A stretch of 64,000 nt of DNA. It comes from Bacillota bacterium (GTDB lineage Bacteria; Bacillota; JAAYKD01). Shown here piece after piece: positions 15,955 through 35,324 of this stretch (position 1 is the first letter of the stretch; every line of letters begins with the position of its first letter). Made by a program: the position numbers and the translations under genes. A model generated the notes under the pieces. The model ran no database searches. It saw nothing but the letters and a program-made list of their open reading frames with translations, and had not been told where the DNA came from. Location: contig DAINOJ010000013.1 in assembly GCA_036744005.1 (NCBI GenBank), positions 10 to 64,009 of the forward strand, written 5' to 3'.

Positions 15955-15964
15955 GAGTGTGAAT

Positions 15965-16522
15965 ATGACTGATATCAAACAAGAACTAGACAAAATTAAA
16001 GCTCGTATCTCCGATGCGAATTTTCTCGCGAACAAAGGTCTATCTAATGAAGTGGGAATTCATGTTTTCACCTACGAACCACAACACGAGCTTATCGTTC
16101 GGGATTATATTGAGCGTCTCGTTAACACCCCGTCCAAGGATTACAGGATTATTGAGAGAGACATGTATAAAATCTTACTAGAAATACTGGATGAGAAACG
16201 TGTTCTTGTTAGCGTGCCATCTTTAGAAGAAAAGAAGGGTAAAGACTTTCTTCTTGCTCAGCTTCAGAAGATTGCAACACAAGATGCTTTTCTTACTAAG
16301 ATGAAATACGAACCACGTCAATACGGAGACGTATTGTTCCTAACAGGTGTCGGTAAAGTATACCCATTTATGAGATCTCATAAAATCCTTGATAGTATGC
16401 AGTTAGAATTCGACAAAGTGCCCATTGTCATGTTTTACCCTGGAGTATTCGATGGTAAGAGCTTAAGCTTATTCGATAAATTCCATGATGGGAACTATTA
16501 TAGAGCGTTTAATCTACTTTAG
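15965..16522 (+). CDS. brxB: BREX protein BrxB (DUF1788)
   Basis: GLSNEVGIHVFTYEP, LTGVGKVYPFMRSH, PIVMFYPG, NYYRAF. Confidence 0.92.
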   Translation: MTDIKQELDKIKARISDANFLANKGLSNEVGIHVFTYEPQHELIVRDYIERLVNTPSKDYRIIERDMYKILLEILDEKRVLVSVPSLEEKKGKDFLLAQLQKIATQDAFLTKMKYEPRQYGDVLFLTGVGKVYPFMRSHKILDSMQLEFDKVPIVMFYPGVFDGKSLSLFDKFHDGNYYRAFNLL

Positions 16523-16533
16523 GAGGCAAGCAA

Positions 16534-19500: not shown

Positions 19501-20052
19501 TTTGCTTCGATCCAAAGCACGAATGAGAAAATTAGAGAAGTTGCTGCTATCATTGCCATGAAAAAGCCCTATAATAGAATAAAGGACTTATCTGAATTGA
19601 TGCAGAGCATAAAAGTTGCATATGAGTCCTTGCTCAAGCAAAAGAAAGACGAAGTTCTGGGCATCATACAGCAATGTATGGGGGACATCCACACACTGGC
19701 AGGAGCCGGTAACAAGGTAAAAAATGAAGTAAATCAGTCAGATGAGCGATTCGTTGATTACAAACAAAGAACGAACAAAGCTACTAGTCTCACCATGTTG
19801 GATGCAATGGTCACGCAAATGCTCAACTATAAGGACCATATATGTAGAAGAATGGAAGCAATGATAAGTGTAGAAGCCCCTGTTAAACCTGGAGAGACGT
19901 TACAGAAGCTTAGGATTTCGCAAGTACGCCGCTATGAAATTTTCCCAACCAAACGACTGACCACACAAGCAGAGGTCGACACCTACCTTGAATCGATACG
20001 GAAAAAGCTAATCGAGATTTTACAAGCGAATGACGGAATCCAAATAACCTAG
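16534..20052 (+). CDS. brxC: BREX P-loop ATPase BrxC
   Basis: WISGFFGSGKSH Walker A, VDEVGQY Walker B, KIQGRF, YPFVPYQ. Confidence 0.95.
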   Translation: MKIQNMFKKDINRDINGVIKVAQDDEQSLIQELSEYIITKELRRLFETFFHNYTKAIDHPTDKIGVWISGFFGSGKSHFLKMLSYLLSNPEVDKKSTISFFKDKFEDPMMYASIVRCTNIPTESILFNIDIEGPIKKDKTAVLRVFTKVFYNHLGFYGEDLKIAKLERFIEKKGLTETFRKVFEQINGSPWTEARASYAFFEDDIVTVLQRTLDMSETAARNWFNGEENQDMSIKQLVEEIKEYVDSKGKDFRLLFCVDEVGQYIGDDSDLMINLQSIVEEVGSKCQGKVWVMVTSQEAIDSVVKISGDDFSKIQGRFNTRLSLSSASVDEVIKKRILEKTEDAEALLRMVYDREHAVLKNLFTFNESVLDIKGYADSAEFTSTYPFVPYQFIIIQKVLAEIRKHGNAGRHLSGGERSMLSGFQEAAQKIQNKDENALVSFSQFYDTVHTFLESPIRRVIDRCQTAADKHDGLEQRDVRVLKLLYLIRYIDDFKANIDNISTLMIEDIRTDKITLRREIAESLERLVRQNYVARHGDSYSFLTDEEQDVATDIRNTPVDTATIVQSIGQTIFNEIYSSKKFKYNKYDFSYDQYIDEYMIGTASGGVRLRLVTVVSDYYNAPEAKLIMDSKINNEAIVVLSGETHYFEELETAAKIRKYIKQKNVSQLPESIQDIIRKRQAQARVLEESARTQIDKAIVGSSFFIHGEKAEIKYGDAKSKLDEALKQLIDSVYSKLSQVNTFSDSDADILTILNSSPQQIGFSGTGSNNEYALNEISQWLEDRYLSHVPVSMGDVHRRYQAIPHGWREIDIAALVARLIVAQRIEIRYGGAAVSKEDKNIVRYLRAKSEIDKASVSRRISPSEDDMRKVVKFLRDWLGKMNIPEDEDGLLYYIKETFNTKLAHYENLLVEYNHFNYPEKDVVLKAQALIVEIFSQRSDNVALLKKLLVKQDDLRDITDDMEDIETFFRSQRDIFDSAQKLYASLQNELDYFASIQSTNEKIREVAAIIAMKKPYNRIKDLSELMQSIKVAYESLLKQKKDEVLGIIQQCMGDIHTLAGAGNKVKNEVNQSDERFVDYKQRTNKATSLTMLDAMVTQMLNYKDHICRRMEAMISVEAPVKPGETLQKLRISQVRRYEIFPTKRLTTQAEVDTYLESIRKKLIEILQANDGIQIT

Positions 20053-20064
20053 AGGAAGTGAACC

Positions 20065-23000
20065 ATGAATAAGAGTGCAATTCAAAAATATGCGATTTGG
20101 GCACGCAACGAACTGATTGACCAAGTGAAGCAGCGTGCTTACCAATATGGAATCAGTGAAAAAGGATACGGCAACGAGCGTGAAGTCGTTATCTCTGGTC
20201 GTGTATTGACAGAGGAAGAACAGCGACAACGTCAAGCTTTTGTTGTACAAATCCAAAAGCAAGGTTACCAGCAAGCTGTTGAAGAAGTAGCTTATACTTG
20301 GTTTAACCGTTTTGTTGCCTTGCGTTTTATGGAAGTGAACGATTATCTACCAACCCATGTCCGTGTGTTTTCGGATGCGAGTGGAAATTTCAATCCTGAA
20401 ATTCTGAAAGATGCTCTGCATCTTGACTTACAGGGTTTAGACAAAGCAAAAGTATCTGACCTGTTGAACGCCAATAAAACAGAAGAGCTCTATCGATATC
20501 TTCTTCTGACTCAGTGTAACACTCTTAACGAGGCGTTACCGGAAATGTTTGAACGGTTAGGTAACTATACTGAGATGCTTCTGCCAAACAATATACTTAA
20601 GGCAGATAGTGTTTTAGGGAGGCTTGTCTCCGATATCACAGAAGATGATTTTCGAGATGCGGTCCAGATAATAGGCTGGATGTATCAGTACTACAATACA
20701 GAACCTAAGCAAGCAGTGTTCGATGGTTTGAAGAAAAATATTAAAATCACCAAAGAGAAAATCCCTGCTGCCACGCAACTCTTTACACCGGACTGGATTG
20801 TTCGATACATGGTGGAGAACTCTCTCGGTAGGTTGTGGTTGGAGTCACATCCGAATGATAAACTTAGAGCTACTTGGAAATACTACCTTGATGAAGCTGA
20901 ACAAACGCCTGAAGTAGCAGAAAAACTGCGTGTCTTGCGTTCGCAGTCTCCTGTGAAGTCACCGGAAGATATAAAGCTAATAGACCCCTGCATGGGCAGT
21001 GGTCATATCTTGGTGTATACCTTTGATGTACTGATGCAAATCTACGAGAGCGAAGGATACAATCCTCGTGATGCTGCAAAGTTGATTTTAAAGAAAAACA
21101 TCTATGGTTTGGACATTGATCGTAGGGCTTACCAGCTCGCGTATTTCTCGCTGATGATGAAAGCACGACAGTATAATCGCCGCATGTTTGCTGAGGATGT
21201 GAAACCGCAGGTTTATTATCCAGCAGGTTGGAGTGAAGGTGAGGAGTATGGTTCGCTTGTAAAAGTTGATACGCTCGAACCCGAACCACAAAGAAAGAAT
21301 ATTCGAGAACAACTTGGTTTCAATGATAATTTCGATCAAGATTTACACGTGTGGAACTTTAAACATCTTTTAACGCAGAGATATGACGTGGTCGTTACCA
21401 ATCCGCCATATATGGGGGGGAATGGAATGAGCCAAAATCTGTCCGAGTTTGTGAAGACTCACTATCCTATCAGCAAGAGTGACCTATTCTCAGCGTTCAT
21501 TGAAAAGTGCATAGATATTACAAATCAAACTGGTTATTGTGGCATGGTTACGATGCAAGCGTGGATGTTTCTATCAAGTTATGAAGTCTTTAGAAAACGA
21601 TTGTTGGCAAAACACACGATTTTTTCACTTGTTCAGATTGGATACAACAGTTTTCCTGAAATCAATTCAAAAGTTGCACTAGCGGTTTCATTAATTTTGA
21701 ATAAAGCACATATCAAGAATTATTATGGTTGCTATCTTGATTTAACAAATAAATATCCACAAGCTTTTAATAAAGAACGAGCCTTTTTTTTGGAAAAGTT
21801 AACTCCTTTTGTCGTTGTTGCAGATAGGTTTATGAAGATACCTAATAGCCCCTTGGCATATTGGGTAAGTGAAGATATGCTGAAAGTATTCGAAAAGGGA
21901 ATCCCGTTAGGGAGTATTGCTGATTCCAAACAGGGATTAGCTACAACAGACAACAAGAAATATTTGCGGTTGTGGCACGAGGTTTCCGAAAACAGGATTG
22001 GTTTTGGTTTATCAAATGTTATTGAAGCGTCAAAAAGCAGGTCAAAATGGTTCCCTTATAATAAGGGAGGTGACTTTAGAAAATGGTATGGTAATGATGA
22101 GTATGTAGTGAACTACTCATGCGATGGAGCAGATATAAAAGCTGATGTTCTAAAAAAATACCCATACTTAAAAACTCCTGATTTTGTTGTTAAAAATACT
22201 CAGTATTATTTCAGAAGATGCATAAGTTGGTCCCTTGTATCCTCGGGAGCAGCATCGTTTCGCTATAAACCGCAAGGATTCATATTTGATGTAGCCGGTA
22301 TGAGTTTTTTTGCTAATGACCATATACTGTATCTGCTAGCTCTTAGTAACACGAAAATAACACTTAAATTCTTAAGTATACTTGCGGCAACAATTAATTA
22401 TCAATGTGGTGATATAGCAAATATTCCGGTTATTATAAATAACTCAAGAAAGCCAAGAATTGAAGATCTAGTTAACATTAACATCAATATTTGCAGAGAC
22501 GAGTGGGATTCCTTCGAAACCTCATGGGATTTTAGACGGCATCCTTTAGTAATTACAGGGAATTTTTTCAAAGGTGGTAAACTAGAACCGAATAAACCTA
22601 TCCCTACAGTACCTCTAAATGTTATGTCATATGGAACCGTGACAGATAAAATATCCATTGCTTTTAATCACTGGGAGGCTTTTGCGGAGTATAGATTCAG
22701 CACCCTCAAAGCCAACGAGGAAGAGCTCAATCGTATCTTCATCGACATCTACAGACTGCAAGACGAACTCACAACTGAGGTTGAGGACAAGGATGTGACT
22801 GTGCGCCGTGCTGACTTGGGGCGAGACATTCGTAGTTTCATCAGTTATTCAGTCGGTTGTATGTTTGGACGCTATTCACTCGATGAAGAAGGGTTGACCT
22901 ATGCAGGTGGAGATTGGGACTCGAGCAAATATAACACATTCATCCCCGACAAGGATAATGTTTTACCCATATGTGATGATGAGTATTTCGATGATGATAT

Positions 23001-23523
23001 TGTTGGACGATTTGTTGAGTTCACACGCGTAGTTTACGGTGCAGAAACCTTAGAGGAAAACTTGAAGTTCATCGCTGATGCACTCGGTGGTAAGGGTACA
23101 TCTCGTGAAGTGATTCGCAACTACTTCCTAAATGGCTTCTATGCTGATCATTGTAAGATTTATCAGAAACGCCCAATCTACTGGTTGTTTGACAGCGGTA
23201 AGAAGAACGGTTTTAAAGCGCTCATCTATCTACATCGGTATTCTTCAGATCTTCTTGCTAAGTTACGGGTCGATTACGTTCACGAACAACAGGAACGATA
23301 TCGAACGCAGCTATCACATATTGATTCTGCTTTAAACGCAGCTACGGGCTCGGAACGAGCTCGGCTGTTAAAACAACAAGATGAATTGTCGGAGCAGCTT
23401 AAGGAAATCACTGCTTTTGAAGAGAAGATTCATCACCTAGCAGATCAAAACATTGAGATAGACCTTGACGATGGTGTTAAAGTAAATTACGCTAAATTTC
23501 CAGATGTTTTGGCGAAAATATAA
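20065..23523 (+). CDS. pglX: BREX-1 adenine methyltransferase PglX
   Basis: AYTWFNR, TQLFTPDWIVRYMVENSLG, DPCMGSGH, TNPPY, KRPIYW, DDGVKVNY. Confidence 0.96.
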   Translation: MNKSAIQKYAIWARNELIDQVKQRAYQYGISEKGYGNEREVVISGRVLTEEEQRQRQAFVVQIQKQGYQQAVEEVAYTWFNRFVALRFMEVNDYLPTHVRVFSDASGNFNPEILKDALHLDLQGLDKAKVSDLLNANKTEELYRYLLLTQCNTLNEALPEMFERLGNYTEMLLPNNILKADSVLGRLVSDITEDDFRDAVQIIGWMYQYYNTEPKQAVFDGLKKNIKITKEKIPAATQLFTPDWIVRYMVENSLGRLWLESHPNDKLRATWKYYLDEAEQTPEVAEKLRVLRSQSPVKSPEDIKLIDPCMGSGHILVYTFDVLMQIYESEGYNPRDAAKLILKKNIYGLDIDRRAYQLAYFSLMMKARQYNRRMFAEDVKPQVYYPAGWSEGEEYGSLVKVDTLEPEPQRKNIREQLGFNDNFDQDLHVWNFKHLLTQRYDVVVTNPPYMGGNGMSQNLSEFVKTHYPISKSDLFSAFIEKCIDITNQTGYCGMVTMQAWMFLSSYEVFRKRLLAKHTIFSLVQIGYNSFPEINSKVALAVSLILNKAHIKNYYGCYLDLTNKYPQAFNKERAFFLEKLTPFVVVADRFMKIPNSPLAYWVSEDMLKVFEKGIPLGSIADSKQGLATTDNKKYLRLWHEVSENRIGFGLSNVIEASKSRSKWFPYNKGGDFRKWYGNDEYVVNYSCDGADIKADVLKKYPYLKTPDFVVKNTQYYFRRCISWSLVSSGAASFRYKPQGFIFDVAGMSFFANDHILYLLALSNTKITLKFLSILAATINYQCGDIANIPVIINNSRKPRIEDLVNININICRDEWDSFETSWDFRRHPLVITGNFFKGGKLEPNKPIPTVPLNVMSYGTVTDKISIAFNHWEAFAEYRFSTLKANEEELNRIFIDIYRLQDELTTEVEDKDVTVRRADLGRDIRSFISYSVGCMFGRYSLDEEGLTYAGGDWDSSKYNTFIPDKDNVLPICDDEYFDDDIVGRFVEFTRVVYGAETLEENLKFIADALGGKGTSREVIRNYFLNGFYADHCKIYQKRPIYWLFDSGKKNGFKALIYLHRYSSDLLAKLRVDYVHEQQERYRTQLSHIDSALNAATGSERARLLKQQDELSEQLKEITAFEEKIHHLADQNIEIDLDDGVKVNYAKFPDVLAKI

Positions 23524-23531
23524 GGAGGAAC

Positions 23532-26129
23532 ATGATGCTGTCAGAAACGATAAAGACGAGAATTGCGGAACGATTCGCTGCACCTCTACCTGAATTCCAT
23601 AAACGCCGCATCGTTTTCTGGCAGGATGAGGACGGTGAGTTTTTAGATGCGTTTAATGAGCTTGAATTGCCCAATGTTAGTAAAGTAAATCTCACCGGTA
23701 CCAATAACTTTGCTGTAAAGAAGCTGCTCTCAGCAGATGACTTGATAGGAGACTATCTGATATATGATTCATTGTCCTATGACAAAGATTTACACGATGA
23801 CTGGCTACTGGACATCAAGTTATACAGTGGTGAACCGTTTCGTGCTGATATGGTCTCGCTCCAAATGGAGGAGTTATTGGTAGAACAGACCACTGCGATG
23901 CGCAAAACAATGAAGCTGTATGGAAAATTTCTTGCGAATAAAGAACGTAAAGAGAAGTTACAACGCATAGGGAGGACCTACCAAGCCCCGCTCCAACTGC
24001 ATATTGACATCATGGCAGTATTGTGTGGGTTAAATGGTGGATCAGCCCAAGACATCATCATTGCCGTATTGTCATCAGATCTAAACAAAGAAACAAATGA
24101 GTTGTTAATCAATATTGAGAAGTTTGGCAATATTGAAGCATTTTGGCAGCTTGTACAGAAGTACACCGGCTTTATGTATTCGGAGGATCGCTCCCTCCTT
24201 GATCTTGCAGCACACATCCTGATTACTGCTTTATCACAAACATTGCCCAGTTCTTATTTGCGCGGCCTAGAGAGGTATATTTCGGATTCCAGCAAAGCGT
24301 ACTGTTATCAGCTCGTTCACGAATGGCAACGTAGCAGTGGAAGTAACGATTTAGAAGAGATTAGTCGTTATGTGGAACAAGAATTACGTCTTACAGAACG
24401 GTTTGATAAAATAGATATTCAAGTCCTTATAAAGAGTGATACGTTTCCAGCGATTAACGAAAGCATCTTGAAGCGGTTCTTTGATGAAATCGGAGGTAAC
24501 ATCATTAAAGTGGAAGATATTTTCCGAGTCGTGGAGAATAGACGAACCTCAGCTTGGTATTCTTTGACCGAAAAATATCATGAGAGTCTCTATTACATAG
24601 CCAGGATGCAAGAATTTTACTTGGCTCATATTGAAGGCTTCCACTTTGTTGAACCCACAAAGCTTTGGAAGCTGTATCTAACCGACGCTTTTGAAATGGA
24701 CAGTCATTATCGGCATTTCCAACTCAATTTTGGTCATACCCTAAAAAATCCAACTCCTCTATTAGAGGACTCTTTGAAGAAGTGTTGTGATGTAGTTGAA
24801 AATTTATATTGCGAGTGGTTTTTAAAGCAGCTGACAATGGCATGGACCAAAGCCATAGCAAGTGACTTGGCTTCGCTTGGGTATATATCGGAAATTACGG
24901 AACAACGGAGATTCTACAACCGCTTTGTTTACCCCAATGCCAGAAAGGGGAACCGCGTGTTTGTAGTGATTTCCGATGCTTTGCGCTATGAAGTTGCTGC
25001 GGAGCTTACCGAAACCCTTGGTCATGCCACGAAGGGCAAAGCGACTCTTGATGCAATTCAAAGTATCTTTCCAAGCGTCACCAAATTCGGAATGGCAGCA
25101 CTTTTACCCGGTAATGAGATATCGGTAAACGAAAAACTCGATGTATTTGTGGATGGGAATCCGACGGTTAGTACACAACAACGGGGTATGATATTGTGCG
25201 AAGCAAACCCAGCGAGTGTAGCGGTGACTTATAAAGAGTTAATTCAGATGAAGAGCCCGGAACGGCGTGAATTGGTGGCGAACAAAGATATTGTCTATAT
25301 TTATCACAATACAATTGATGCAACTGGTGATAAAGCTGCTACTGAAGTGAAAGTGTTTGAGGCATGCAATGATGCGATTGAAGAACTGACCGCTCTCGTG
25401 AAGCTAATTGCTAACGATTTGAGCGGAAGCAATATTTTCATCACAGCGGATCATGGCTTCCTTTACACTTACAAACCTCTTGAAGAGAGCCAGAAAATCA
25501 GTCGCCAAACATTTAGTGGTGAATTATTAGAGCTTGGTCGACGCTATGCGCTCGTAACCCCTGAAACAAAGGCAGACTATTTATTGCCTGTTAATACGGA
25601 ACGAACTTTACATGGGACACCCATGAAAGGGTATGCCCCCCAAGATACCGTGCGCATTAAAGTTCAGGGTGGAGGAGAGAACTACGTACATGGAGGAATC
25701 AGCTTACAGGAGATGGTTGTTCCGGTCATTACTTACAAGGCTTTGCGAGCAGGTTCGAAAACATATGTTGAAGTGCAGAACCCAGGTTTATCGCTCATTT
25801 CTGAAAGTCGGAAAATTTCTAACCTCATGTTCTCACTGGATTTCCTGCAGAAACAACCAATAGGTGAAAAGGTTCAACCGTGCAGTTATAACTTGCATTT
25901 CACCGATGAAACGGGGGTTCCTGTTAGTGACTTGCAGAAGGTGATCGCCGATAGAACGAGCACCAATGCTTCGGAACGAGTATACCGTGTAAGGTTTGCA
26001 TTGAAGCAAATGAAGTACAATAGAAACAAGATTTATCGACTTGTCATTAGTAACAATATCGATGTTCCCGAAGAAGTGGAGTTTATCATCGATATCGCAT
26101 TTGCAGATGAGTTCGGTTTCGAATTGTAA
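23532..26129 (+). CDS. pglZ: BREX-1 phosphatase PglZ
   Basis: VISDALRYE, PSVTKFGMAALLP, ITADHGF, YVHGGISLQE. Confidence 0.95.
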   Translation: MMLSETIKTRIAERFAAPLPEFHKRRIVFWQDEDGEFLDAFNELELPNVSKVNLTGTNNFAVKKLLSADDLIGDYLIYDSLSYDKDLHDDWLLDIKLYSGEPFRADMVSLQMEELLVEQTTAMRKTMKLYGKFLANKERKEKLQRIGRTYQAPLQLHIDIMAVLCGLNGGSAQDIIIAVLSSDLNKETNELLINIEKFGNIEAFWQLVQKYTGFMYSEDRSLLDLAAHILITALSQTLPSSYLRGLERYISDSSKAYCYQLVHEWQRSSGSNDLEEISRYVEQELRLTERFDKIDIQVLIKSDTFPAINESILKRFFDEIGGNIIKVEDIFRVVENRRTSAWYSLTEKYHESLYYIARMQEFYLAHIEGFHFVEPTKLWKLYLTDAFEMDSHYRHFQLNFGHTLKNPTPLLEDSLKKCCDVVENLYCEWFLKQLTMAWTKAIASDLASLGYISEITEQRRFYNRFVYPNARKGNRVFVVISDALRYEVAAELTETLGHATKGKATLDAIQSIFPSVTKFGMAALLPGNEISVNEKLDVFVDGNPTVSTQQRGMILCEANPASVAVTYKELIQMKSPERRELVANKDIVYIYHNTIDATGDKAATEVKVFEACNDAIEELTALVKLIANDLSGSNIFITADHGFLYTYKPLEESQKISRQTFSGELLELGRRYALVTPETKADYLLPVNTERTLHGTPMKGYAPQDTVRIKVQGGGENYVHGGISLQEMVVPVITYKALRAGSKTYVEVQNPGLSLISESRKISNLMFSLDFLQKQPIGEKVQPCSYNLHFTDETGVPVSDLQKVIADRTSTNASERVYRVRFALKQMKYNRNKIYRLVISNNIDVPEEVEFIIDIAFADEFGFEL

Positions 26130-26147
26130 GGAAAGGAGGGTTCTGCT

Positions 26148-28223
26148 ATGTCCTCAGAAATAACGCAATACACAACGGAAACAGATGATAAGAATGCAAT
26201 CATCAATAAGAAACTGCGTAAGTATTTTGATGGAAGAATTGTCCGCAAAGATCTGACGAAGGCAATTAAAGAAGGGGCCAATGTGCCTGTCTATGTTTTG
26301 GAGTTTTTACTGGGTCAGTATTGCTCTACCGATGACCCGCAAATCGTTGAGGAAGGCATGAAAAACGTTAAGAGAATCCTCTCAGAAAACTTTGTACGAC
26401 CGGATGAGTCGCAAAAAGTATTATCGAGCTTGCGTGAACGAGGTAGTTATACGGTCATTGATCGCATAACAGTAAGTTTGAACATTAAATATGACCGTTA
26501 TGAAGCGGATTTTTCGAACCTAGGAATTCGATATATTCCGATCTCCTCGGAGTATGTTTCAAAGTATGACCGTCTGCTATGCGGGGGTATTTGGTGCATT
26601 ATTGGGCTTGAATACGAGTATATTGAAGAAGACAGAAAGTCTACGCCAATCAGTATTGTCAGACTGACCCCCATTCAAATGCCTCATATCGATATGGATG
26701 AAATCAAAGCGGGTCGCCGTGAGTTTACCAAGGATGAGTGGATAACGGTTCTGCTACGTTCTACCGGAATGGAAGCGGATCGTTTCACAACTCGAGAAAA
26801 GTGGTTGCAACTGGCTCGATTACTGCCGCTTATTGAGAACAATTTCAATTTTTGCGAGTTGGGCCCACGCAGCACAGGAAAATCACACTTATACAAAGAG
26901 ATTTCACCAAACAGTATTTTGGTTTCCGGAGGGCAAACCACGGTTGCGAACCTCTTCTATAACATGTCAACAAAGCAAGTTGGGTTAGTTGGGCTTTGGG
27001 ATTGTGTAGCTTTTGATGAAGTTGCAGGCATCACCTTCAAAGATAAAGATGGCATTCAAATCATGAAGGATTACATGGCTTCTGGATCCTTTGCCAGAGG
27101 AAAGGAAGAGAAGGCTGCTTCGGCTTCAATGGTATTTGTGGGGAATATCAATCAAAGTGTAGAGGTTCTCTTAAAAACATCGCATCTCTTTGATCCATTC
27201 CCTGAAGCAATAGCCTACGATACGGCCTTTCTAGACCGAATGCATTGTTATATACCCGGTTGGGAGGTCCCAAAATATCGCCCTGAATCCTTCACCAATG
27301 ATTATGGCTTTATAACGGACTACCTTGCTGAATTCATGCGCGAGATGCGTAAAGAGCCGTTTGGTGATGTGAGTGACCGTTTCTTCCGCTTTGGAAACAA
27401 TCTGAATCAGCGAGATGTGATTGCTGTACGCAAAATTGTGTCCGCTTTTACGAAGCTGCTTTATCCTCATGGAGAATTTAGCAAAGAAGAGATCGCCGAG
27501 ATTTTAGTCTTTGCATTGGAGATGCGTCGACGCGTCAAAGAGCAAATGAAGAAAATCGGCGGAATGGAATTTTACGATGTGAATTTTTCTTATATCGACA
27601 ATGAAACCTTTGAGCAGCACTACATTTCGGTTCCTGAGCAGGGTGGGGGTAAGATCATACCTGAAGGGCTAAGCAATCCAGGTAATGTGTATACAGTATC
27701 ACAAGGCAAGAGCGGCATGATTGGAGTTTATCGACTTGAAACACAAATGCTACCCGGAAACGGAAAATTTGAGCGTACTGGCCTAGGGTCCGACCGTGAA
27801 GCTAGGGAAGCGACCAACTCAGCGTTTAACTACTTGAAAGCAAGCAGTCATTTAATAAGCGGCCAACTCAGCACAACAACCAAAGACTATATCATCAGTT
27901 ACCAAGATCTGAACGGAATTGGAATGACCAAACTATTGACACTGCCTTCGGTTATTGCCATTGCCTCTTGTGCTCTCAACAAACCGACGCTTTCCGGTCT
28001 TGCTGTGCTGGGCGAAATCAGTATTAGTGGCACAATTCTAAAGGTTGAGGAACTTGCTAGCGTTTTGCAAGTGTGTCTCAACGCCGGAGCAAAAAAGGTG
28101 CTCATACCCATAACATCTGCTGCGGAAATCGGGGCAGTTCCTGCAGAATTGATAGGTGCTTTCAGCTTGATTTTTTATGCTACCCCACAAGAAGCTGTGT
28201 TCAAAGCGTTGGGTGTGGAGTAG
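26148..28223 (+). CDS. brxL: BREX Lon-like protein BrxL
   Basis: GANVPVYVLEFLLG, ELGPRSTGKS, FDEV, C-terminal Lon-like domain. Confidence 0.95.
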   Translation: MSSEITQYTTETDDKNAIINKKLRKYFDGRIVRKDLTKAIKEGANVPVYVLEFLLGQYCSTDDPQIVEEGMKNVKRILSENFVRPDESQKVLSSLRERGSYTVIDRITVSLNIKYDRYEADFSNLGIRYIPISSEYVSKYDRLLCGGIWCIIGLEYEYIEEDRKSTPISIVRLTPIQMPHIDMDEIKAGRREFTKDEWITVLLRSTGMEADRFTTREKWLQLARLLPLIENNFNFCELGPRSTGKSHLYKEISPNSILVSGGQTTVANLFYNMSTKQVGLVGLWDCVAFDEVAGITFKDKDGIQIMKDYMASGSFARGKEEKAASASMVFVGNINQSVEVLLKTSHLFDPFPEAIAYDTAFLDRMHCYIPGWEVPKYRPESFTNDYGFITDYLAEFMREMRKEPFGDVSDRFFRFGNNLNQRDVIAVRKIVSAFTKLLYPHGEFSKEEIAEILVFALEMRRRVKEQMKKIGGMEFYDVNFSYIDNETFEQHYISVPEQGGGKIIPEGLSNPGNVYTVSQGKSGMIGVYRLETQMLPGNGKFERTGLGSDREAREATNSAFNYLKASSHLISGQLSTTTKDYIISYQDLNGIGMTKLLTLPSVIAIASCALNKPTLSGLAVLGEISISGTILKVEELASVLQVCLNAGAKKVLIPITSAAEIGAVPAELIGAFSLIFYATPQEAVFKALGVE

Positions 28224-28469
28224 GAAAATTGGGTCTTCAATGATAATACCTGTTTCATTAGTGAGTTCTTTGGCGGACATGCGCACCGGTTTAGAGTATA
28301 ATTGACGTTGATGAAAAAAGTGAATGCTGACTCATCGAACTTTGAATATTAACTTTCTGGAGGAGAAGATATGCAAGTTCTTCCATTGGTAAATACAAAG
28401 AAGTCATTTCTTTAATGGTCGCTGAATATTGCATTCTTCAAAAAGATTAAAGAATAGGAGACCTGTTGT

Positions 28470-30464
28470 ATGAGTAGTATTCAGAACAATAATAATACGA
28501 TTTCATTGCTTGACGACGACTGCTCTTTCGTCAGCTCTTCAGGAGGCAAGCTCGAGGTCGTTAAACTCACTTATGAGTCAGCCGAGTCCATTACTTGGCA
28601 AGACCTCTTTTCTGGTTTCGACACACTTTATGCGATCACTTTCTCGTCCGGCGTCAATTTCGTGTATAAGCTTCTCGGAATGTTTGACTACGCCGAAATC
28701 ATTTTCGGCTGTGAAGCTGTTATGTCCTATACACTTCAAGAAGTTATGGCGTATCAGGGCATACTCATTAAACGAATGCGAGACGGTATATCGGAATCTC
28801 AATCTCAGCTGCTTTCACGTATGGATAACGGCAGCGTTAAATTCTATGTATCCCGGACAAAACTCTCTCATGAAAAGCTGTACCTCCTCGCAGCTGAAGA
28901 CGGGCGCAAGCGTGTTATAATGGGCTCTGCCAACATGTCTTATAATGCTTTTGGCGGAATACAGCGTGAAAATATCTGCTATATGGACGGGGATGAAGCG
29001 TATGACTGGTACATGGGTTCATTCTCAGAACTCCGGGAATGCAGTTCAGACACGATAAAGCGAAGTGCCCTCGAACGAGCTGATCTGAATGAAAACATTG
29101 ATGAACTGCCAGTGGCCGGATCGATAAAGGCTAATAAAGTCCTTGTCATAGAGCCGGTTAAGGAGAACACAGAGGAAGTCAAATTCGTACTAGAAACTCA
29201 TAGGCGTGCAGGTACACTTACCCCAATGCTACCAAAGGCAGATAAAAAAACTGGTAAGCTTACCGTGGTGACGGATACCATCGTGAAGCTGCGTCGGCAA
29301 CTTATAAGCGAAGCGACAAAAGAAAAAGAACTGCGAAGTGAGTATCCGCAGCTCGTGATTGATGCATTCCAAGGCACTGCAGCCTTGAATGCAGATCTGC
29401 TTGACCTCAACCCTGACCGGGATGCCGTCGGGCAGGATGTTTCGCTCTTTCTTAGATACATGGAAGGGTATAACAAGTTTCACGGCGATTACGTTGGTAT
29501 GCAGTATCGCTATTTTGAATTTGCCAACTGGTTTTTCTGTTCTCCTTTTATGGGTGTCATGCGGGATATGGCGGCTCGCTATGATCAGAACCGGCTGCCG
29601 TATCCTGTATTCGGTCTCGTTTACGGTCAGAGCAAGGCCGGTAAAACGAGCTTTCTGGAAACTCTGCTGAAAATGATGATTGGTCAGAAGCCAAAGGTAT
29701 CGGCACCAGACTTTACCAGATCCAGCATTGAGAATCTCAAACGCACTGTTCAGGGTGCCCCGATCATTGTTGATGATCTTACAAATACCCGTTTCAGCCA
29801 ACATGCTATTGAAACAATAAAGAACGACGACTTCGGCGTAAGTGAACATCTTATCAATTATTCGGCTGTTGTTATCAGTGCCAATGAGGATGTGAAAGCT
29901 GTTGCTCCAGAAGTGATTCGGCGTACGGTGATTTGCCGTGTGGAAGCAGGCCTCACAAATACCGAGGTAATGAAAAGTAATGTGGTGCGCTCAGTACAGC
30001 AGAAAATCGGTACTGCCTTCTACAGAGAGTATTTGCGTCGCATGCTTGCTCTGATCCCGGATTTGATTGAGGCATTGAAAGCAGACAACGATGATAATGC
30101 CCCTGACATTCTCAAGTGTTCTTCCGAAGTCATTTGCGAGATTATTGGCGAGCACACAGAGGAGATGCCTGAATATGTTCGACGTCTCTCTCTCGATAAT
30201 TATTTCAGTGAGCAAGTAACTGGAAAATACGCTATTAAGACGGTTCAGAACGCCTGGAAAACCAGTCGAAAATCATTCGTAATCTCGCCAAGGAATAATG
30301 AGTTGAGGTATAATGCCGGCGCTACATATGAAGCTGATCGTTTGATGAAGGAACTCCCTGAGACTCTGGAAGCACATAAATCCCGAGAATGGGTTGTGAT
30401 GAATTTAGACGAAGCACGACACTTCTTCGAGATCAACTTCAAAAAGCCACTGTTCCCTTGGTAA
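28470..30464 (+). CDS. PLD-family nuclease domain fused to a P-loop NTPase
   Basis: SHEKLY...VIMGSANMS (PLD HxK...GSxN), GQSKAGKT Walker A, IIVDD Walker B. Confidence 0.8.
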   Translation: MSSIQNNNNTISLLDDDCSFVSSSGGKLEVVKLTYESAESITWQDLFSGFDTLYAITFSSGVNFVYKLLGMFDYAEIIFGCEAVMSYTLQEVMAYQGILIKRMRDGISESQSQLLSRMDNGSVKFYVSRTKLSHEKLYLLAAEDGRKRVIMGSANMSYNAFGGIQRENICYMDGDEAYDWYMGSFSELRECSSDTIKRSALERADLNENIDELPVAGSIKANKVLVIEPVKENTEEVKFVLETHRRAGTLTPMLPKADKKTGKLTVVTDTIVKLRRQLISEATKEKELRSEYPQLVIDAFQGTAALNADLLDLNPDRDAVGQDVSLFLRYMEGYNKFHGDYVGMQYRYFEFANWFFCSPFMGVMRDMAARYDQNRLPYPVFGLVYGQSKAGKTSFLETLLKMMIGQKPKVSAPDFTRSSIENLKRTVQGAPIIVDDLTNTRFSQHAIETIKNDDFGVSEHLINYSAVVISANEDVKAVAPEVIRRTVICRVEAGLTNTEVMKSNVVRSVQQKIGTAFYREYLRRMLALIPDLIEALKADNDDNAPDILKCSSEVICEIIGEHTEEMPEYVRRLSLDNYFSEQVTGKYAIKTVQNAWKTSRKSFVISPRNNELRYNAGATYEADRLMKELPETLEAHKSREWVVMNLDEARHFFEINFKKPLFPW

Positions 30465-30541
30465 AGGAATCAAATTGCTAATCAGGAACACTCGGAGGGT
30501 TACTTACATATAGTGACAGAGCTTTTTTAGTTAGAGCCTGT

Positions 30542-31630: not shown

Positions 31631-31985
31631 TGTAAGTGGTAATATAAAGTATACCATTTAGGGACATATGAAATGGGCCAAATCTCGCCACAAAGTATAC
31701 CTGTGCTCGCCAGAAAAGGGACCACCTTTAGCCTGTAATGTGTTAAGCTTTCTGAGAGAAGAAAACTCAGAAAGGAACTTAACAGATGAAGGAGTTCAAG
31801 ATGTATAGAAAATTAAAGACCTATTGCTCAAGGGTTTTTCCGAAAGAAAAACTTCAGAGATGTTAGGTATAAATCGGAAAACCGTGAACAGGTATCATAA
31901 CATGACCCTGGATGAAGACGTGGACAAAACAGCACGACCTCTTATTCGTATCATTAAAACCTTCTTAAATACAGTATTATTTTAG
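31631..31985 (+). mobile_element. istA: IS21-family remnant (left end plus frameshifted istA N-terminus)
   Basis: Begins TGTAAGTGGTAATATAAAGTATACCA with a repeated AAAGTATACC; ATG 31801 then, after a 1-nt deletion, IKDLLLKGFSERKTSEMLGINRKTVNRYHNMTLDE (IstA-type HTH); truncated. Confidence 0.65.
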
Positions 31986-33032
31986 AAACGTTATGTTGGT
32001 CCACATTGGTCCAAAGCCCATTCGTTTCATAACTGCGTCAATAGGTATAGTATGCAATTGTTTCTGTAACTTGCCAAACGCAGCCTTCATCAATTTTATA
32101 AACTCATTTAGTTCACTTTTACTCAATAGCAGAGCAAATATGATGGCAATTGCATATGCATCATTGGTTCCGTATGTGTAAGATCCATCTCTAGCTCTAA
32201 TGATTTCTAAGCTGTCAAAGCCTTTAATGCTTTTTGTGTGGAGGCGACGGCGAAATGTAATATCAAAGAAGCGTTCATCATGAGCACATTTGTTTCGTGC
32301 TAAACCTAACATTTCCATAATTTTATGAAGTTCGTCCGGAGCAACATTGAATTGTTTGGCAATCACTGATTTGTCTGCAGGCTTCATATTCAAATAGAAA
32401 TATGTGATTTTCCCAAAAGTAAGAACATTTACAAGGACCCAGAGTGGTATGTAACCATGACGAGTCATGTAGTGCGTAACAGCTTGATGATGATTACCCA
32501 TCTGCCGCGCAATTTCCTGTTGAATATCACCGATTAACTTTATAACGGATTGTGTGTTTCCTTCAGCACTAATTTGCTGGACCTTTACCAAATCAGCAGG
32601 AAGTTCAAGATTGTTCCGTTTGGCTACATAGGATAAATGATTGCTATCCGTCGCTGCTTGGCATTGGAAATTATCTAGCTTCAAATAATTGTCATATCCG
32701 TACTTAGATGAGAATTCGTGCGCAACGACAGTTTTTAATCTGTTTTCAACTATTAATAGAAATTTAAGGTAAATATTTCTGATTTCTCGATCAAAGGAAA
32801 ATAGAGAATAAACTTCATCAAAAGTCGTGCCTGTCCTATATGTTTCATCGACTGTTTCGGTAGCTTGGGTTGCCAAAAACAAATCTCTATACCCGTTAAT
32901 AACATTGTAGTAGTTTTCACCTTCCAAAATTCGCATAACGCGCGAACCTTGAGAGCCTTTTTCGATAATCATCCCTCTGCTACGAAGAGTGGCTAGTAAT
33001 TGGCGATATGTTTTGAATACTTTTTTCCCCAT
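31977..33032 (-). CDS. Abi family (Abi_2/AbiD-AbiF-like) HEPN protein
   Basis: FKTYRQLLATLRSRGMII, ENYYNVINGY, FDREIR, PLWVLVNVLTFG, RNKCAH (RxxxxH); RBS GGAGG before ATG 33032. Confidence 0.92.
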   Translation of the reverse strand: MGKKVFKTYRQLLATLRSRGMIIEKGSQGSRVMRILEGENYYNVINGYRDLFLATQATETVDETYRTGTTFDEVYSLFSFDREIRNIYLKFLLIVENRLKTVVAHEFSSKYGYDNYLKLDNFQCQAATDSNHLSYVAKRNNLELPADLVKVQQISAEGNTQSVIKLIGDIQQEIARQMGNHHQAVTHYMTRHGYIPLWVLVNVLTFGKITYFYLNMKPADKSVIAKQFNVAPDELHKIMEMLGLARNKCAHDERFFDITFRRRLHTKSIKGFDSLEIIRARDGSYTYGTNDAYAIAIIFALLLSKSELNEFIKLMKAAFGKLQKQLHTIPIDAVMKRMGFGPMWTNITFLK

Positions 33033-33044
33033 AATGCCTCCTAT

Positions 33045-33104
33045 ACTATAAAAAAGCCCCCGGGCCCGAAGGACACCGGAGGACAAACTAGCAATATTCT
33101 TTGT
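33045..33104 (-). ncRNA. candidate abiF-like leader/antitoxin RNA
   Basis: GC-rich hairpin GTCCTCCGGTGTCCTTCGGGCCCGGGGGC followed by a U-run, between a consensus promoter and the Abi RBS. Confidence 0.55.
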
Positions 33105-33110
33105 AACCCT

Positions 33111-33138
33111 ATTATAGCACACCCGTGAGTTTTGTCAA
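33111..33138 (-). promoter_or_regulatory. sigma70/sigmaA promoter of the Abi locus
   Basis: TTGACA-16 nt-TATAAT with extended -10 TG. Confidence 0.85.
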
Positions 33139-33923: not shown

Positions 33924-35264
33924 TTAAAGCAATCCTGCCATGTACAGTGGTAAATGTATGATCCCGTCTTTTATCAGCACATCTTTGGTATAGAGAATGT
34001 ATGAGTTACCGATGACAGATGAAAAATGATTACGAAATTTATCAAGAGAAGAATGTGAACGGTAATTACCAGATTTGATCTCCACAGGTGAAATTTTCTT
34101 TCCCTCTGCAATCAAGAAATCGATCTCCATGTGGTTTTCGCGCACCAGATTGTCGGAGCGGGAATAGAAATACAGACGAGATCTCCCGTGACGAAGCATC
34201 TGAGCGACAATGTTTTCCATAAGCATTCCCTCATTGATATTCAGCTTATCAAAAAGAATAGCTCGATAAAGCTCATTGTCGGTGAATTTCTTATCTTTGA
34301 AGGCATGAGTGACGAGTAGTCCTGTATCCGCCATGTAGCACTTTTGCGTTGTGTTGTCTGAACTCAAGGCAAGACCAACATTAGGATCGGTTGCATTGAA
34401 ACAGGTATTGACAACCATGGCTTCATTGAGCCAAATAAAAGAATCTTTAAAGGTTCTGAACCGAGCCTGTTTACCTAGTGAGGAGAGTTTATACTTCTTT
34501 TCCTTTTTGGAAAGTTGCCCTGGAATATTGTCGAAGACAGCGAACACCTTCCCTTCGTACCATTCTGCGAATTTTACTACATCGTCCCTATAGAGTTTTA
34601 AAATTCGTCGCTTGGCAACATCGGAAGATTCAAAGTCTTTACCGTTCATGTAAGCTAGAACGGACTGTGGCATACCGCCCACTAGAATATACTGTCGAAA
34701 GTCATTCATGATTTTACGGTGCAAAGCAGCCCCAAGCGGTTTTTTTGTTTCAAAGCAATACTTTATCAGAGGATAGGTCGCCTCGTCACCCATTGCCCAG
34801 AGAAACTCCTCAAAGTCCAGCGGGAACATTTCGATGTGATCTTCTTCTGAAGGGATGATTATATCCTGCACATTCTTTTTCAAACGAATCAACGAACCTG
34901 TTTCGAGGTAATCGAATCTGCCGTCAGCTATAAGATATTTGATGAGCTGCCGCGCTCTAGGATATTGCTGAACCTCGTCAAAGATGATCAGCGACTCGCG
35001 CTTATGAAGAACTGTGGAATAAAAGGCGGCGAGTTTTGCGAAGAAAAGATCTAGGTCAGAGCTGTCATAGATAAATAAATCAAGAACATCCTTCGCTGCA
35101 TTTCCAAAGTCAATCAGAATATAGCTTTTGTACTCTGCCTTAGCAAACCTCTCGGCAATATAGCTTTTACCGACACGCCGCGCACCATCAATCATCATGG
35201 CAGTTGCGCCATTGCTACTCTTTTTCCAAGCAACTAGCTCATCATAAATCTTTCTTTTCAGCAT
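33924..35264 (-). CDS. AAA family ATPase with DUF4143 C-terminal domain
   Basis: GARRVGKS, IIFDEVQ, ETGS, KCYMADTGLL, EIDFL...PVEIKSG; RBS AAGAGGTG before ATG 35264. Confidence 0.92.
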   Translation of the reverse strand: MLKRKIYDELVAWKKSSNGATAMMIDGARRVGKSYIAERFAKAEYKSYILIDFGNAAKDVLDLFIYDSSDLDLFFAKLAAFYSTVLHKRESLIIFDEVQQYPRARQLIKYLIADGRFDYLETGSLIRLKKNVQDIIIPSEEDHIEMFPLDFEEFLWAMGDEATYPLIKYCFETKKPLGAALHRKIMNDFRQYILVGGMPQSVLAYMNGKDFESSDVAKRRILKLYRDDVVKFAEWYEGKVFAVFDNIPGQLSKKEKKYKLSSLGKQARFRTFKDSFIWLNEAMVVNTCFNATDPNVGLALSSDNTTQKCYMADTGLLVTHAFKDKKFTDNELYRAILFDKLNINEGMLMENIVAQMLRHGRSRLYFYSRSDNLVRENHMEIDFLIAEGKKISPVEIKSGNYRSHSSLDKFRNHFSSVIGNSYILYTKDVLIKDGIIHLPLYMAGLL

Positions 35265-35324
35265 AATAATCACCTCTTGTATTGATAGTATATTCTCAAT
35301 CCTAGTTTATTATTACACACAAAA

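What the first reader, a model, noticed from the sequence alone, without database searches (positions are those of the whole stretch)
28470..30464. PLD-nuclease/P-loop fusion directly downstream of BREX
Seen: a single PLD half-site motif and a C-terminal NTPase in one 664-aa protein, co-oriented after brxL. Known: single-motif PLD nucleases act as dimers in restriction and defence (BfiI, DISARM DrmC), and BREX loci often carry accessory defence genes. I do not recognise this fusion as a named system. Inference: a stand-alone or BREX-cooperating anti-phage effector.
Basis: partly seen in the sequence, partly recalled or inferred. Interest (0 to 1): 0.68.

Follow-up and report, generated by a model that had tools for sequence, protein, structure and literature searches.

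The report
PLD nuclease fused to SF3-type ATPase
Right after a complete BREX phage-defence operon sits one gene that fuses a restriction-enzyme-type DNA-cutting domain to a ring-helicase-type ATPase normally used by viruses and plasmids for replication; it belongs to a large, uncharacterised, horizontally mobile family that lives in bacterial defence islands and is most likely an unnamed stand-alone anti-phage nuclease.

Summary
Window 28470-30464(+) is a 664-aa ORF 246 nt downstream of brxL and co-oriented with it. It has one HKD (PLD) half-site (H134/K136/N155) and a P-loop NTPase.

The NTPase can be named more exactly. It is a superfamily-3 (SF3, D5/primase-helicase-like) AAA+ module with Walker A K392, Walker B D435/D436, classical motif C (T/S)(S/T)N472 and an arginine finger R485. 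These residues are invariant or nearly so across 69 relatives down to 24% identity.

The family is large: 953 clusters at 50% identity, and Pfam calls the C-terminal part 'Aq_aa27'. It is spread across phyla by transfer and has no conserved partner gene. Its neighbours are rich in defence genes, above all SauUSI-like type IV enzymes and defence helicases.

BREX linkage is not general. Only 2 of about 77 other species-level loci have BREX nearby, and a 94%-identical copy lies elsewhere behind an AraC-type regulator.

No PADLOC 2023 model and no paper I could search names this fusion.

Best reading: a stand-alone, NTP- and oligomerisation-gated PLD defence nuclease. It works like SauUSI or CglI/NgoAVII but uses a different motor. 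No experiment exists.

The parts
28470..30464 (+). Gene for the 664-aa PLD nuclease / SF3-type ATPase fusion (stop codon included)
28575..29054 (+). N-terminal PLD (HKD) nuclease domain, about residues 36-195. Nearest solved folds are R.NgoAVII, SauUSI, BfiI and Zucchini
   Evidence: Pfam; Foldseek; coordinates
28869..28934 (+). Single HKD half-site HEKLYLLAAEDGRKRVIMGSAN. K136 and N155 are invariant; H134, G152, S153 and E167 are nearly invariant in 69 relatives
29055..29348 (+). Poorly conserved linker/middle region (residues 196-293). The module boundary at about residue 290-294 is where alternative N-termini are joined in relatives
29349..30461 (+). C-terminal SF3 helicase-like module (Pfam PF27394 'Aq_aa27'): helical collar, AAA+ core and a small C-terminal alpha/beta domain
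29625..29648 (+). Walker A GQSKAGKT (K392 invariant)
29763..29780 (+). Walker B IIVDDL (D435 is D/E in 64/69, D436 is D/E in 69/69)
29868..29885 (+). SF3 motif C / sensor 1 VVISAN (N472 invariant; the two preceding positions are mostly T/S and S/T/A)
29919..29924 (+). Basic pair R484-R485 (R485 invariant; 484 is K or R in 68/69): candidate arginine finger
28224..28469 (+). Intergenic region between brxL and the gene. It holds one promoter-like site at 28274-28302 (not above chance) and, from 28362, a decayed remnant of the 3' end of an AraC-type regulator gene that precedes the gene in L003/L029/L006/L099
30542..30866 (+). Pseudogene remnant of the 3' end of a second, different brxL allele (brxL residues 587-691; 76% nt identity to 27904-28227; frameshift near 30779). 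Together with the intact brxL it brackets the 2.3-kb cassette
15340..28223 (+). Context: intact type 1 BREX operon brxA, brxB, brxC, pglX, pglZ, brxL
31977..33122 (-). Context: Abi_2 (abortive-infection-like) gene in the same island
33924..35273 (-). Context: AAA_14/DUF4143 ATPase gene. The same family recurs next to homologs elsewhere (3 of 134 upstream neighbours)

Best explanation
The gene encodes a self-contained, NTP-dependent defence endonuclease.

Shown by computation:
- The N-terminal domain is a restriction-type PLD nuclease that carries only half of an active site.
- The C-terminal 370 residues are an SF3 (D5/primase-helicase-like) AAA+ ATPase.
- The catalytic residues of both domains are conserved across the whole family.
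- The gene travels alone between defence islands of many phyla.

Inferred from what is established for these folds:
- SF3 ATPases work as hexameric rings on DNA, with the arginine finger acting in trans.
- Single-HKD nucleases such as Nuc, BfiI and SauUSI need two protomers to complete one catalytic centre.

Proposed sequence of events: the SF3 module assembles on invader DNA, most likely on ssDNA or fork-like replication or injection intermediates. ATP binding and hydrolysis drive assembly or translocation. This brings neighbouring PLD half-sites together into active dimers that cut the DNA.

No methyltransferase partner is conserved. Self/non-self discrimination therefore does not rest on a cognate methylation mark. 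It rests either on DNA structure or on base modification (type IV-like).

In this window the cassette was recombined in behind brxL, where it acts alongside BREX rather than as part of it. This resembles the type IV enzyme BrxU in other BREX islands (own knowledge).
For: - Domains and motifs.
- Structure model: AF2 pLDDT 89.5, pTM 0.82.
- N-terminal fold matches: R.NgoAVII 4rct (E 1.4e-5), SauUSI 7clg, BfiI 2c1l.
- C-terminal fold matches: JCV/SV40 large T helicase, ASFV PrimPol, MPXV E5, B19V NS1, AAV2 Rep40, vaccinia D5, and phage DUF927/RepB/D5 primase-helicases (E down to 5e-7).
- Weak Pfam hits of family members point the same way: RNA_helicase 8, DUF5906 4, VapE 2, PPV_E1_C 1.4e-5, DUF927.
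- Family size and constant architecture.
- Spread across Clostridia, Kiritimatiellia, Verrucomicrobia, Lentisphaerae, Spirochaetota and Chitinispirillia at 57-69% identity, and on plasmids of Acetobacter, Komagataeibacter, Arcobacter, Athalassotoga and Thermus.
- No conserved neighbour gene.
- Defence-rich neighbours among the two nearest ORFs on each side. Upstream: PDC-S41 7, mREase_IV 7, PDC-S07 5, PDC-S01 3, HEC-05 3, GajB-like 2. Downstream: mREase_IV 4, mad2 3, type I/II MTases, ZorD 2, Csm6 2, MzaA 2. Pfam views.
- Other neighbours: a type I hsdR and a type I-C CRISPR-Cas locus, a DISARM-like helicase-MTase-helicase block on plasmid pATS1, a WYL/Upf1-like helicase and a DUF6361 helicase block.
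- No homolog in the phage collections.
Against: - No experiment of any kind supports defence, nuclease or NTPase activity.
- Defence enrichment was judged from aggregate family counts without a matched control set.
- Hexamer formation and PLD dimerisation are inferred from fold families, not modelled.
- Relatives in which the same C-terminal module is joined to SPFH/Band-7 or transmembrane N-termini instead of PLD show that the module does not need a DNA-cutting partner. This argues that it may be a sensor/switch rather than a DNA motor.
- Nothing here identifies the trigger or the substrate.
Confidence: 0.5

Rival explanations
1. Abortive-infection sensor-effector. The SF3-like module is an NTP-driven switch that senses a phage protein or a replication state. 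The N-terminal domain is an interchangeable toxic effector. Here that effector is a PLD nuclease which, once the protein oligomerises, degrades DNA indiscriminately and stops the infected cell.
For: One lineage carries a nearly identical C-terminal module in several arrangements. It is joined at the same junction (window residue ~290) to an SPFH/Band-7 plus coiled-coil domain (P0215) or to a signal/TM plus unknown domain (P0220). In another form a TM N-terminus (P0248) lies next to a separate flotillin gene. Effector swapping on a constant NTPase is typical of sensor-effector defence proteins (own knowledge). An Abi_2 gene lies 1.5 kb away in the window.
Against: The great majority of family members seen (64 of 69 diverse representatives) keep the PLD domain. 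The variants come from a single lineage in prophage-like contexts. The nearest structural relatives of the module are DNA-translocating helicases.
Confidence: 0.2
2. BREX accessory. The protein depends on BREX, for example by using PglX methylation as the self mark or BrxL/BrxC as a partner. This would supply the nuclease that BREX lacks.
For: It lies 246 nt after brxL on the same strand. The same brxL-gene junction is found in three independent metagenome contigs at about 95% nt identity. A second, unrelated BREX locus (L057; brxL 62% identical) also has the gene downstream, after a DUF5131 gene and another PLD gene.
Against: Only 2 of about 77 other genome loci have BREX genes within 10 kb. 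Copies 94%, 88% and 82% identical sit behind other genes with no BREX. The cassette in the window still carries the decayed tail of the AraC-type gene that precedes it elsewhere, so it arrived as an independent unit. The family also occurs on plasmids without BREX.
Confidence: 0.07
3. Mobile-element replication or mobilisation protein. It would be a Rep-like nickase-helicase in which a PLD domain, which forms a covalent phosphohistidine intermediate, replaces the HUH nuclease that is fused to SF3 helicases in parvovirus or plasmid Rep proteins.
For: The C-terminal module is closest to replicative SF3 helicases of viruses, phages and plasmids, including Rep40 and NS1. Some homologs are plasmid-borne or lie next to serine recombinases.
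Against: No homolog was found in 50,697 phage records or by pattern scan of IMG/VR. There are no conserved flanking non-coding ends: nucleotide homology to L003/L029 stops 6 nt after the stop codon. No co-travelling element genes were found. The PLD domain is of the restriction-enzyme NgoFVII type. Chromosomal neighbours are defence genes.
Confidence: 0.07
4. Orphan endonuclease subunit of a classical methylation-protected R-M system of the NgoAVII/CglI kind, whose methyltransferase is encoded elsewhere.
For: The best structural match of the PLD domain is R.NgoAVII. PGAP calls relatives 'NgoFVII family restriction endonuclease' or 'restriction endonuclease PLD domain-containing protein'.
Against: Methyltransferases are rare among the nearest neighbours (2 to 4 of 261 neighbour ORFs). 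The match to NgoAVII covers only the PLD domain (176 columns). Pfam found nothing but the PLD domain and weak P-loop matches, so neither the B3-like DNA-binding domain nor the SF2 partner is present.
Confidence: 0.05

Closest known systems
SauUSI (Staphylococcus aureus ATP-dependent type IV restriction enzyme, PDB 7clg)
   Same: One polypeptide with an N-terminal NgoFVII-type single-HKD PLD nuclease followed by an ATPase motor. It has no cognate methyltransferase. The PLD folds match. SauUSI-like genes are the commonest neighbour of this family (11 of about 77 loci).
   Different: SauUSI's motor is an SF2 helicase (ResIII/Helicase_C) and it has a DUF3427 modified-cytosine reader. The window protein has neither. 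It has a ring-type SF3 AAA+ module instead. Sequence similarity to a neighbouring SauUSI-like protein is limited to the HKD motif.
NgoAVII / CglI ATP-dependent restriction systems (R-protein PDB 4rct) and BfiI (2c1l)
   Same: Best structural match of the nuclease domain. The logic of a half-site PLD that must dimerise is the same. In NgoAVII/CglI cleavage also needs an ATPase (own knowledge).
   Different: Those R-proteins carry a B3-like DNA-recognition domain, the ATPase is a separate SF2-type protein, and a methyltransferase is linked. None of these is present here.
END nucleases and the class 'N-terminal PLD nuclease + variable C-terminal module' (PMC12191111)
   Same: Same type of N-terminal nuclease and the same modular idea. 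That paper also lists BrxL among the neighbours of END genes.
   Different: The END C-terminal domain is an inactive EndoIII-like reader of hypermodified bases without an NTPase. An SF3 partner is not mentioned in the passages I read.
Nuclease-NTPase defence systems with PLD nucleases: Mokosh and Azaca (10.1101/2025.07.10.664194)
   Same: A PLD nuclease working with an NTPase in phage defence.
   Different: No Mokosh model matched. The only Azaca match is ZacB at E 0.0056 over 44 residues of the HKD motif. Their NTPases are SF1/SF2-type helicases in separate or differently ordered proteins.
SF3 helicases of viruses, phages and plasmids (SV40 LTag, AAV Rep40, poxvirus D5/E5, phage DUF927/primase-helicases)
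   Same: Same fold and the motif set Walker A, Walker B, motif C and arginine finger.
   Different: Those are replication proteins fused to origin-binding, HUH or primase domains. Here the partner is a restriction-type nuclease, the gene is not in phages, and it sits in defence islands.
BrxU / other type IV enzymes embedded in BREX islands
   Same: A nuclease gene next to an otherwise nuclease-free BREX operon. A complementary role is plausible (own knowledge).
   Different: BrxU is a GmrSD-family (DUF262/DUF1524) enzyme, which is unrelated in sequence and fold.

Membership tests
PLD (HKD) nuclease superfamily, NgoFVII/BfiI/Nuc branch | HxK...GSxN catalytic motif and PLD fold, one copy per chain | tested here: met
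   PF09565 scores 29.7 bits against a cut-off of 23.8 and PF13091 scores 28 against 27. H134 is present in 68/69 relatives, K136 in 69/69 and N155 in 69/69. Foldseek matches 4rct, 7clg, 2c1l and 4gel.
PLD (HKD) nuclease superfamily, NgoFVII/BfiI/Nuc branch | Dimerisation to complete the active site; phosphodiesterase activity on DNA | not testable with these tools
   No multimer modelling or biochemistry was available.
SF3 helicase (AAA+) | Walker A, Walker B, motif C (hhh[TS][TS]N) and a trans arginine finger in an AAA+ core | tested here: met
   K392, D435/D436, N472 and R485 are conserved. Foldseek finds SF3 helicases at E 5e-4 to 1e-2 in PDB and 5e-7 in BFVD. Pfam shows weak SF3 hits across members.
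SF3 helicase (AAA+) | Hexameric ring; 3'-5' translocation/unwinding | not testable with these tools
   Inferred from the fold family only.
SauUSI-type type IV restriction enzyme | PLD + SF2 helicase (ResIII/Helicase_C) + DUF3427 reader | tested here: not met
   Pfam finds no ResIII, Helicase_C or DUF3427 in the protein, whereas the neighbouring L032 protein has all three.
NgoAVII/CglI ATP-dependent R-M | R-protein with a B3-like domain, a separate SF2 ATPase subunit, and a linked methyltransferase | tested here: not met
   No conserved partner gene. Methyltransferases are rare among neighbours. The structural match covers the PLD part only.
BREX (type 1) component | Consistent co-occurrence with brxA/B/C, pglX, pglZ, brxL | tested here: not met
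   BREX genes are near the gene in 2 of about 77 other genome loci. Close homologs occur without BREX.
Mokosh / Azaca / DISARM DrmC | Match to the systems' protein models and presence of the partner genes | tested here: not met
   PADLOC's best hit is ZacB at E 0.0056 over the HKD motif only. There is no Mko or Drm hit.
Anti-phage defence gene (generic) | Enrichment next to known defence genes | tested here: inconclusive
   There are many defence-model hits among the 261 nearest neighbour ORFs, and RM, CRISPR and helicase systems lie nearby. No matched background control was run.
Anti-phage defence gene (generic) | Protection against phage when expressed | not testable with these tools
   Experimental.

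The most novel reading that the evidence does not exclude
The 'Aq_aa27' SF3 helicase-like module is a replication helicase of mobile elements that has been exapted as the sensing and assembly core of a new modular defence family. The same core is paired with interchangeable effectors: a half-site PLD nuclease in most members, and SPFH/flotillin or transmembrane modules in others. Ring assembly on a phage-specific DNA intermediate would be what switches the effector on. This would be the first defence family built on an SF3 ATPase.
Probability: 0.3. Interest if true: 0.75.

Novelty: new variant of a known kind. Interest (0 to 1): 0.6.

Why it matters
Nuclease-plus-NTPase proteins are a recurring design in bacterial immunity. 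The known PLD examples (SauUSI, CglI/NgoAVII, Mokosh, Azaca) use SF1 or SF2 helicases.

A large family (about 950 clusters at 50% identity) that couples the same nuclease to a viral-type SF3 ring ATPase would add a new motor class to bacterial immunity. It is abundant in gut and rumen Clostridia.

The geometry also gives a clean test case for oligomerisation-gated activation of a half-site nuclease: six ATPase domains with three possible PLD dimers.

It would show a replication helicase of mobile elements being recruited against them.

For BREX biology, it documents the 3' end of brxL as a recombination junction where nuclease cargo is swapped in.

Tried and rejected
- The first AF2 run used an alignment of 51 close homologs (66-97% identity). 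It gave pLDDT 65, with the whole P-loop core below 50. I replaced it with a 69-sequence alignment of 24-64% identity, which gave pLDDT 89.5.
- Sequence and profile searches of PDB found nothing significant. The best hits were NucT/Zucchini at about 0.04 and Msp1 at 0.14.
- A full-text search for 'Aq_aa27' only hit DOI strings. 'PLD' searches mostly hit 'pLDDT'.
- Searches for NgoFVII, for SF3 + anti-phage + PLD, and for hyphenated fusion names found no description of the fusion.
- A profile search of the large protein database returned mostly one 64%-identity clade and added little diversity.
- IMG/VR and GenBank phages gave no homolog.
- Rfam found nothing in the window, and there are no tRNAs.
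- The promoter and terminator scan was not above chance.
- I considered that the PLD domain might be a recent copy of the neighbouring SauUSI-like PLD, and rejected this.
- I considered a conserved two-gene system with the AraC-type regulator. It is present only in the closest clade (L003, L029, L006, L099/L100) and absent elsewhere.
Full report
**1. Observation**

Upstream lies a complete type 1 BREX operon:
- brxA 15340
- brxB 15959
- brxC 16534
- pglX 20065
- pglZ 23532
- brxL 26148-28223

The gap between brxL and the ORF is 246 nt.

Pfam places a restriction-type PLD domain on residues 105-189, above the curated cut-offs (RE_NgoFVII 29.7 bits, PLDc_2 28.0 bits). The only HxK motif is H134-E-K136, followed by G152-S-A-N155. 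A Walker A (GQSKAGKT, 386-393) and a Walker B (IIVDDL, 432-437) follow in the C-terminal half.

The island is bounded by housekeeping genes: DegV at 13205-14107 and an APH-type kinase at 35527. It also holds an Abi_2 gene and an AAA_14/DUF4143 ATPase on the other strand.

**2. What the protein is**

PADLOC-DB 2.0 gives no meaningful match; the best is ZacB at E 0.0056 over 44 residues of the HKD motif. NCBIfam has no model, and PDB sequence searches find nothing.

The protein database holds 1878 relatives at E<=1e-3, nearly all about 665 aa long. Their precomputed Pfam annotation adds PF27394, which another tool names 'Aq_aa27'. This family is named after an uncharacterised protein and is absent from the local Pfam copy.

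An exhaustive HMMER search of 50%-identity representatives finds 953 clusters, 294 of them below 1e-30. The full PLD + C-terminal architecture is kept down to about 26% identity.

In an alignment of the window protein with 68 diverse representatives (24-64% identity), the only invariant residues are K136, N155, K392, N472 and R485. H134, G152, S153, E167, G386, G391 and K451 are nearly invariant, and D435/D436 are acidic almost throughout.

Positions 470-472 read (T/S)(S/T/A)N. This is the classical motif C of superfamily-3 helicases. K/R484-R485 is in the position of the arginine finger (the motif definition is from own knowledge).

Weak Pfam hits across members point the same way: RNA_helicase 8, DUF5906 4, VapE-like 2, PPV_E1_C 1.4e-5 and DUF927.

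**3. Structure**

A first AlphaFold2 model from close homologs was poor (pLDDT 65). A second model from the diverse alignment is confident (pLDDT 89.5, pTM 0.82).

Foldseek against PDB matches the N-terminal domain to:
- R.NgoAVII (4rct, E 1.4e-5)
- SauUSI (7clg)
- BfiI (2c1l)
- Zucchini (4gel)

It matches the C-terminal half to SF3 helicases:
- JCV and SV40 large T antigen
- ASFV PrimPol
- monkeypox E5
- parvovirus B19 NS1
- AAV2 Rep40
- vaccinia D5

Against predicted viral structures, the best matches are phage DUF927, 'replication protein B' and D5-type primase-helicases, down to E 5e-7.

The 'P-loop NTPase' is therefore an SF3, D5-like module. It comprises a helical collar (about 317-370), an AAA+ core (381-495), a helical region and a small alpha/beta C-terminal domain.

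**4. Genomic behaviour**

A scan of one genome per species returned 80 loci. They are mostly Clostridia, but also include Kiritimatiellia, Verrucomicrobia, Lentisphaerae, Spirochaetota and Chitinispirillia at 57-69% identity, which implies horizontal transfer.

Plasmids of Acetobacter, Komagataeibacter, Arcobacter, Athalassotoga and Thermus carry distant copies that PGAP names 'restriction endonuclease PLD domain-containing protein'. Neither IMG/VR (by pattern scan) nor 50,697 phage records hold one.

All-against-all clustering of ORFs in the loci finds no conserved partner gene. The most frequent neighbour cluster occurs in 11 loci.

I scanned the two nearest ORFs on each side, 134 upstream and 127 downstream.

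Upstream (Pfam; PADLOC E<=1e-10):
- SauUSI-like PLD-helicase-DUF3427 enzymes (mREase_IV, 7)
- Schlafen-group-3/DUF2075 helicases (PDC-S41, 7)
- PDC-S07 (5); NUDIX proteins also recur (Pfam, 6) and may be the same genes, though I did not map one onto the other
- PDC-S01 (3)
- HEC-05 (3)
- GmrSD (3)
- NERD/UvrD or GajB-like proteins (2)

Downstream:
- mREase_IV (4)
- mad2 (3)
- type I and type II methyltransferases
- ZorD (2)
- Csm6 CARF-HEPN (2)
- MzaA (2)

Individual contigs add further neighbours:
- a type I hsdR
- a type I-C CRISPR-Cas locus
- a DISARM-like helicase-methylase-helicase block
- a DUF6361 helicase block
- a WYL regulator with an Upf1-like helicase

This is the pattern of a defence-island gene. 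I did not run a matched control, so I rate the enrichment as strong but not formally tested.

**5. Relation to BREX**

BREX genes lie within 10 kb in only two other genome loci:
- L057: pglZ, a brxL 62% identical to the window's, then DUF5131, another PLD protein, then the gene.
- L068: pglX and pglZ on the opposite strand.

The window's own junction is shared by three metagenome contigs at about 95% nucleotide identity (P0001, 97% aa). It is therefore a lineage feature, not a family feature.

Nucleotide homology to the 94%-identical copies in L003/L029 runs from 28362 to 30470 only. In those genomes, and in L006 and L099/L100, an AraC-type HTH gene directly precedes the gene. The window keeps only a decayed tail of that gene of about 90 nt.

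Downstream, 30542-30866 is a frameshifted remnant of the last 105 codons of a different brxL allele, 76% identical in nucleotides. In the sister contigs, homology breaks inside this remnant at 30624.

The 2.3-kb cassette was therefore recombined in between an intact brxL and the stump of an older one. The 3' end of brxL acts as a junction for cargo exchange. The gene is a passenger next to BREX, not a component of it.

**6. Modularity**

Four representatives share an almost identical C-terminal module, 34% identical to the window's from residue ~290 onward. Their N-termini differ:
- P0215 has an SPFH/Band-7 domain plus a coiled coil.
- P0220 has a signal/TM segment plus an unknown domain, joined at the same 'LHIDYDAG' junction.
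- P0248 has a TM N-terminus and lies after a separate Band-7/flotillin gene.
- P0184 is a PLD form with an internal deletion.

P0215 was seen on two independent contigs. It and P0220 lie among AcrVA2-like genes, and in the P0215 loci also a Mor-like gene, which suggests a prophage accessory region.

The SF3-like module is thus a unit that can drive different effectors.

**7. Mechanism**

Shown:
- two enzymatic modules with conserved catalytic residues;
- a single HKD half-site;
- an SF3 fold;
- no linked methyltransferase;
- stand-alone mobility in defence islands.

Inferred:
- SF3 ATPases act as hexameric rings with trans-acting arginine fingers.
- Half-site PLD nucleases must pair to form one active centre.

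Ring assembly on DNA, driven or stabilised by NTP, would bring PLD domains of adjacent protomers together and license cleavage.

Target choice is unknown. The two candidates are structural features of invading or replicating DNA (ssDNA, forks, ends) and modified bases (type IV-like). The frequent company of type IV enzymes and the lack of a methyltransferase fit either one.

The effector swaps keep an abortive-infection reading alive, in which the module is a sensor and the nuclease an indiscriminate toxin.

**8. Comparison with known systems**

The protein works most like SauUSI and the CglI/NgoAVII enzymes, which also couple a half-site PLD nuclease to an ATPase. It also fits the 'N-terminal PLD nuclease + variable C-terminal module' class described for END nucleases (PMC12191111).

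It is not a member of any of these. It lacks the SF2 helicase, DUF3427, the B3-like domain, the inactive EndoIII reader, the partner subunit and the methyltransferase.

The published survey of nuclease-NTPase systems lists only Mokosh and Azaca as PLD types (10.1101/2025.07.10.664194). Neither matches.

I found no paper that describes a PLD-SF3 fusion. I could not consult the newest DefenseFinder or PADLOC models, so a very recent name cannot be excluded.

**9. Verdict**

I rate the finding a new variant of a known kind (nuclease-NTPase defence enzymes) with an unprecedented motor class. Interest is 0.6.

Noticed in passing
window 30542-30866: Frameshifted remnant of the last ~105 codons of a second brxL allele. 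It is 76% nt and 78-96% aa identical to the intact brxL 3' end at 27904-28227. The cassette is therefore bracketed by brxL and a brxL stump, a sign of recombinational cargo exchange at the end of BREX.
   Followed up: yes
window 28362-28452: Decayed 3' tail (with stop codons) of an AraC-type HTH regulator gene. In L003, L029, L006 and L099/L100 the intact gene directly precedes the PLD-SF3 gene. The window copy has lost its dedicated regulator.
   Followed up: yes
L096:5203, L097:4261, L098:2607 (window 30624): In three sister metagenome contigs (~95% nt identity from brxL through the gene), homology to the window ends inside the brxL remnant. The DNA beyond this point differs between close strains.
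   Followed up: partly
window 30946-31440: ORF 30946-31248 (100 aa, no Pfam hit) appears to continue in another frame to a stop near 31440. It may be one ~165-aa gene broken by a frameshift near 31240. A hairpin followed by a T-run lies at about 31488-31530.
   Followed up: no
window 31977-33122 (-) and 33924-35273 (-): An Abi_2 (abortive-infection-like) gene and an AAA_14/DUF4143 ATPase complete the ~21-kb defence island between DegV (13205-14107) and an APH-type kinase (35527-36510). AAA_14/DUF4143 genes also recur next to homologs of the PLD-SF3 gene.
   Followed up: partly
L085:8001-10232, L086:3564-5795, L093:8001-9851, L094:213-3462: One lineage carries the same C-terminal SF3-like module in other combinations. 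It is fused to SPFH/Band-7 plus a coiled coil, fused to a signal/TM plus unknown domain at the same junction, or present as a TM protein after a separate flotillin gene. Neighbours include AcrVA2-like and Mor-like genes (prophage-like region).
   Followed up: partly
L057:1692-11971: A second, unrelated BREX locus (brxL 62% identical) is followed by a DUF5131 gene, a 528-aa PLD protein with an unassigned C-terminal half, and then the PLD-SF3 gene. This makes three extra genes stacked behind brxL.
   Followed up: partly
L034, L039, L048 (around the gene): A recurring local arrangement: a SauUSI-like enzyme, a ~130-aa protein directly upstream, the PLD-SF3 gene, then a ~105-aa protein 4-5 nt downstream. 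The small proteins were not identified individually; NUDIX domains are frequent among upstream neighbours.
   Followed up: no
window 31780-31960: Short reading frames here, read by eye, look like a fragment of an HTH/transposase-type gene just upstream of the Abi_2 gene's end. I did not analyse this.
   Followed up: no
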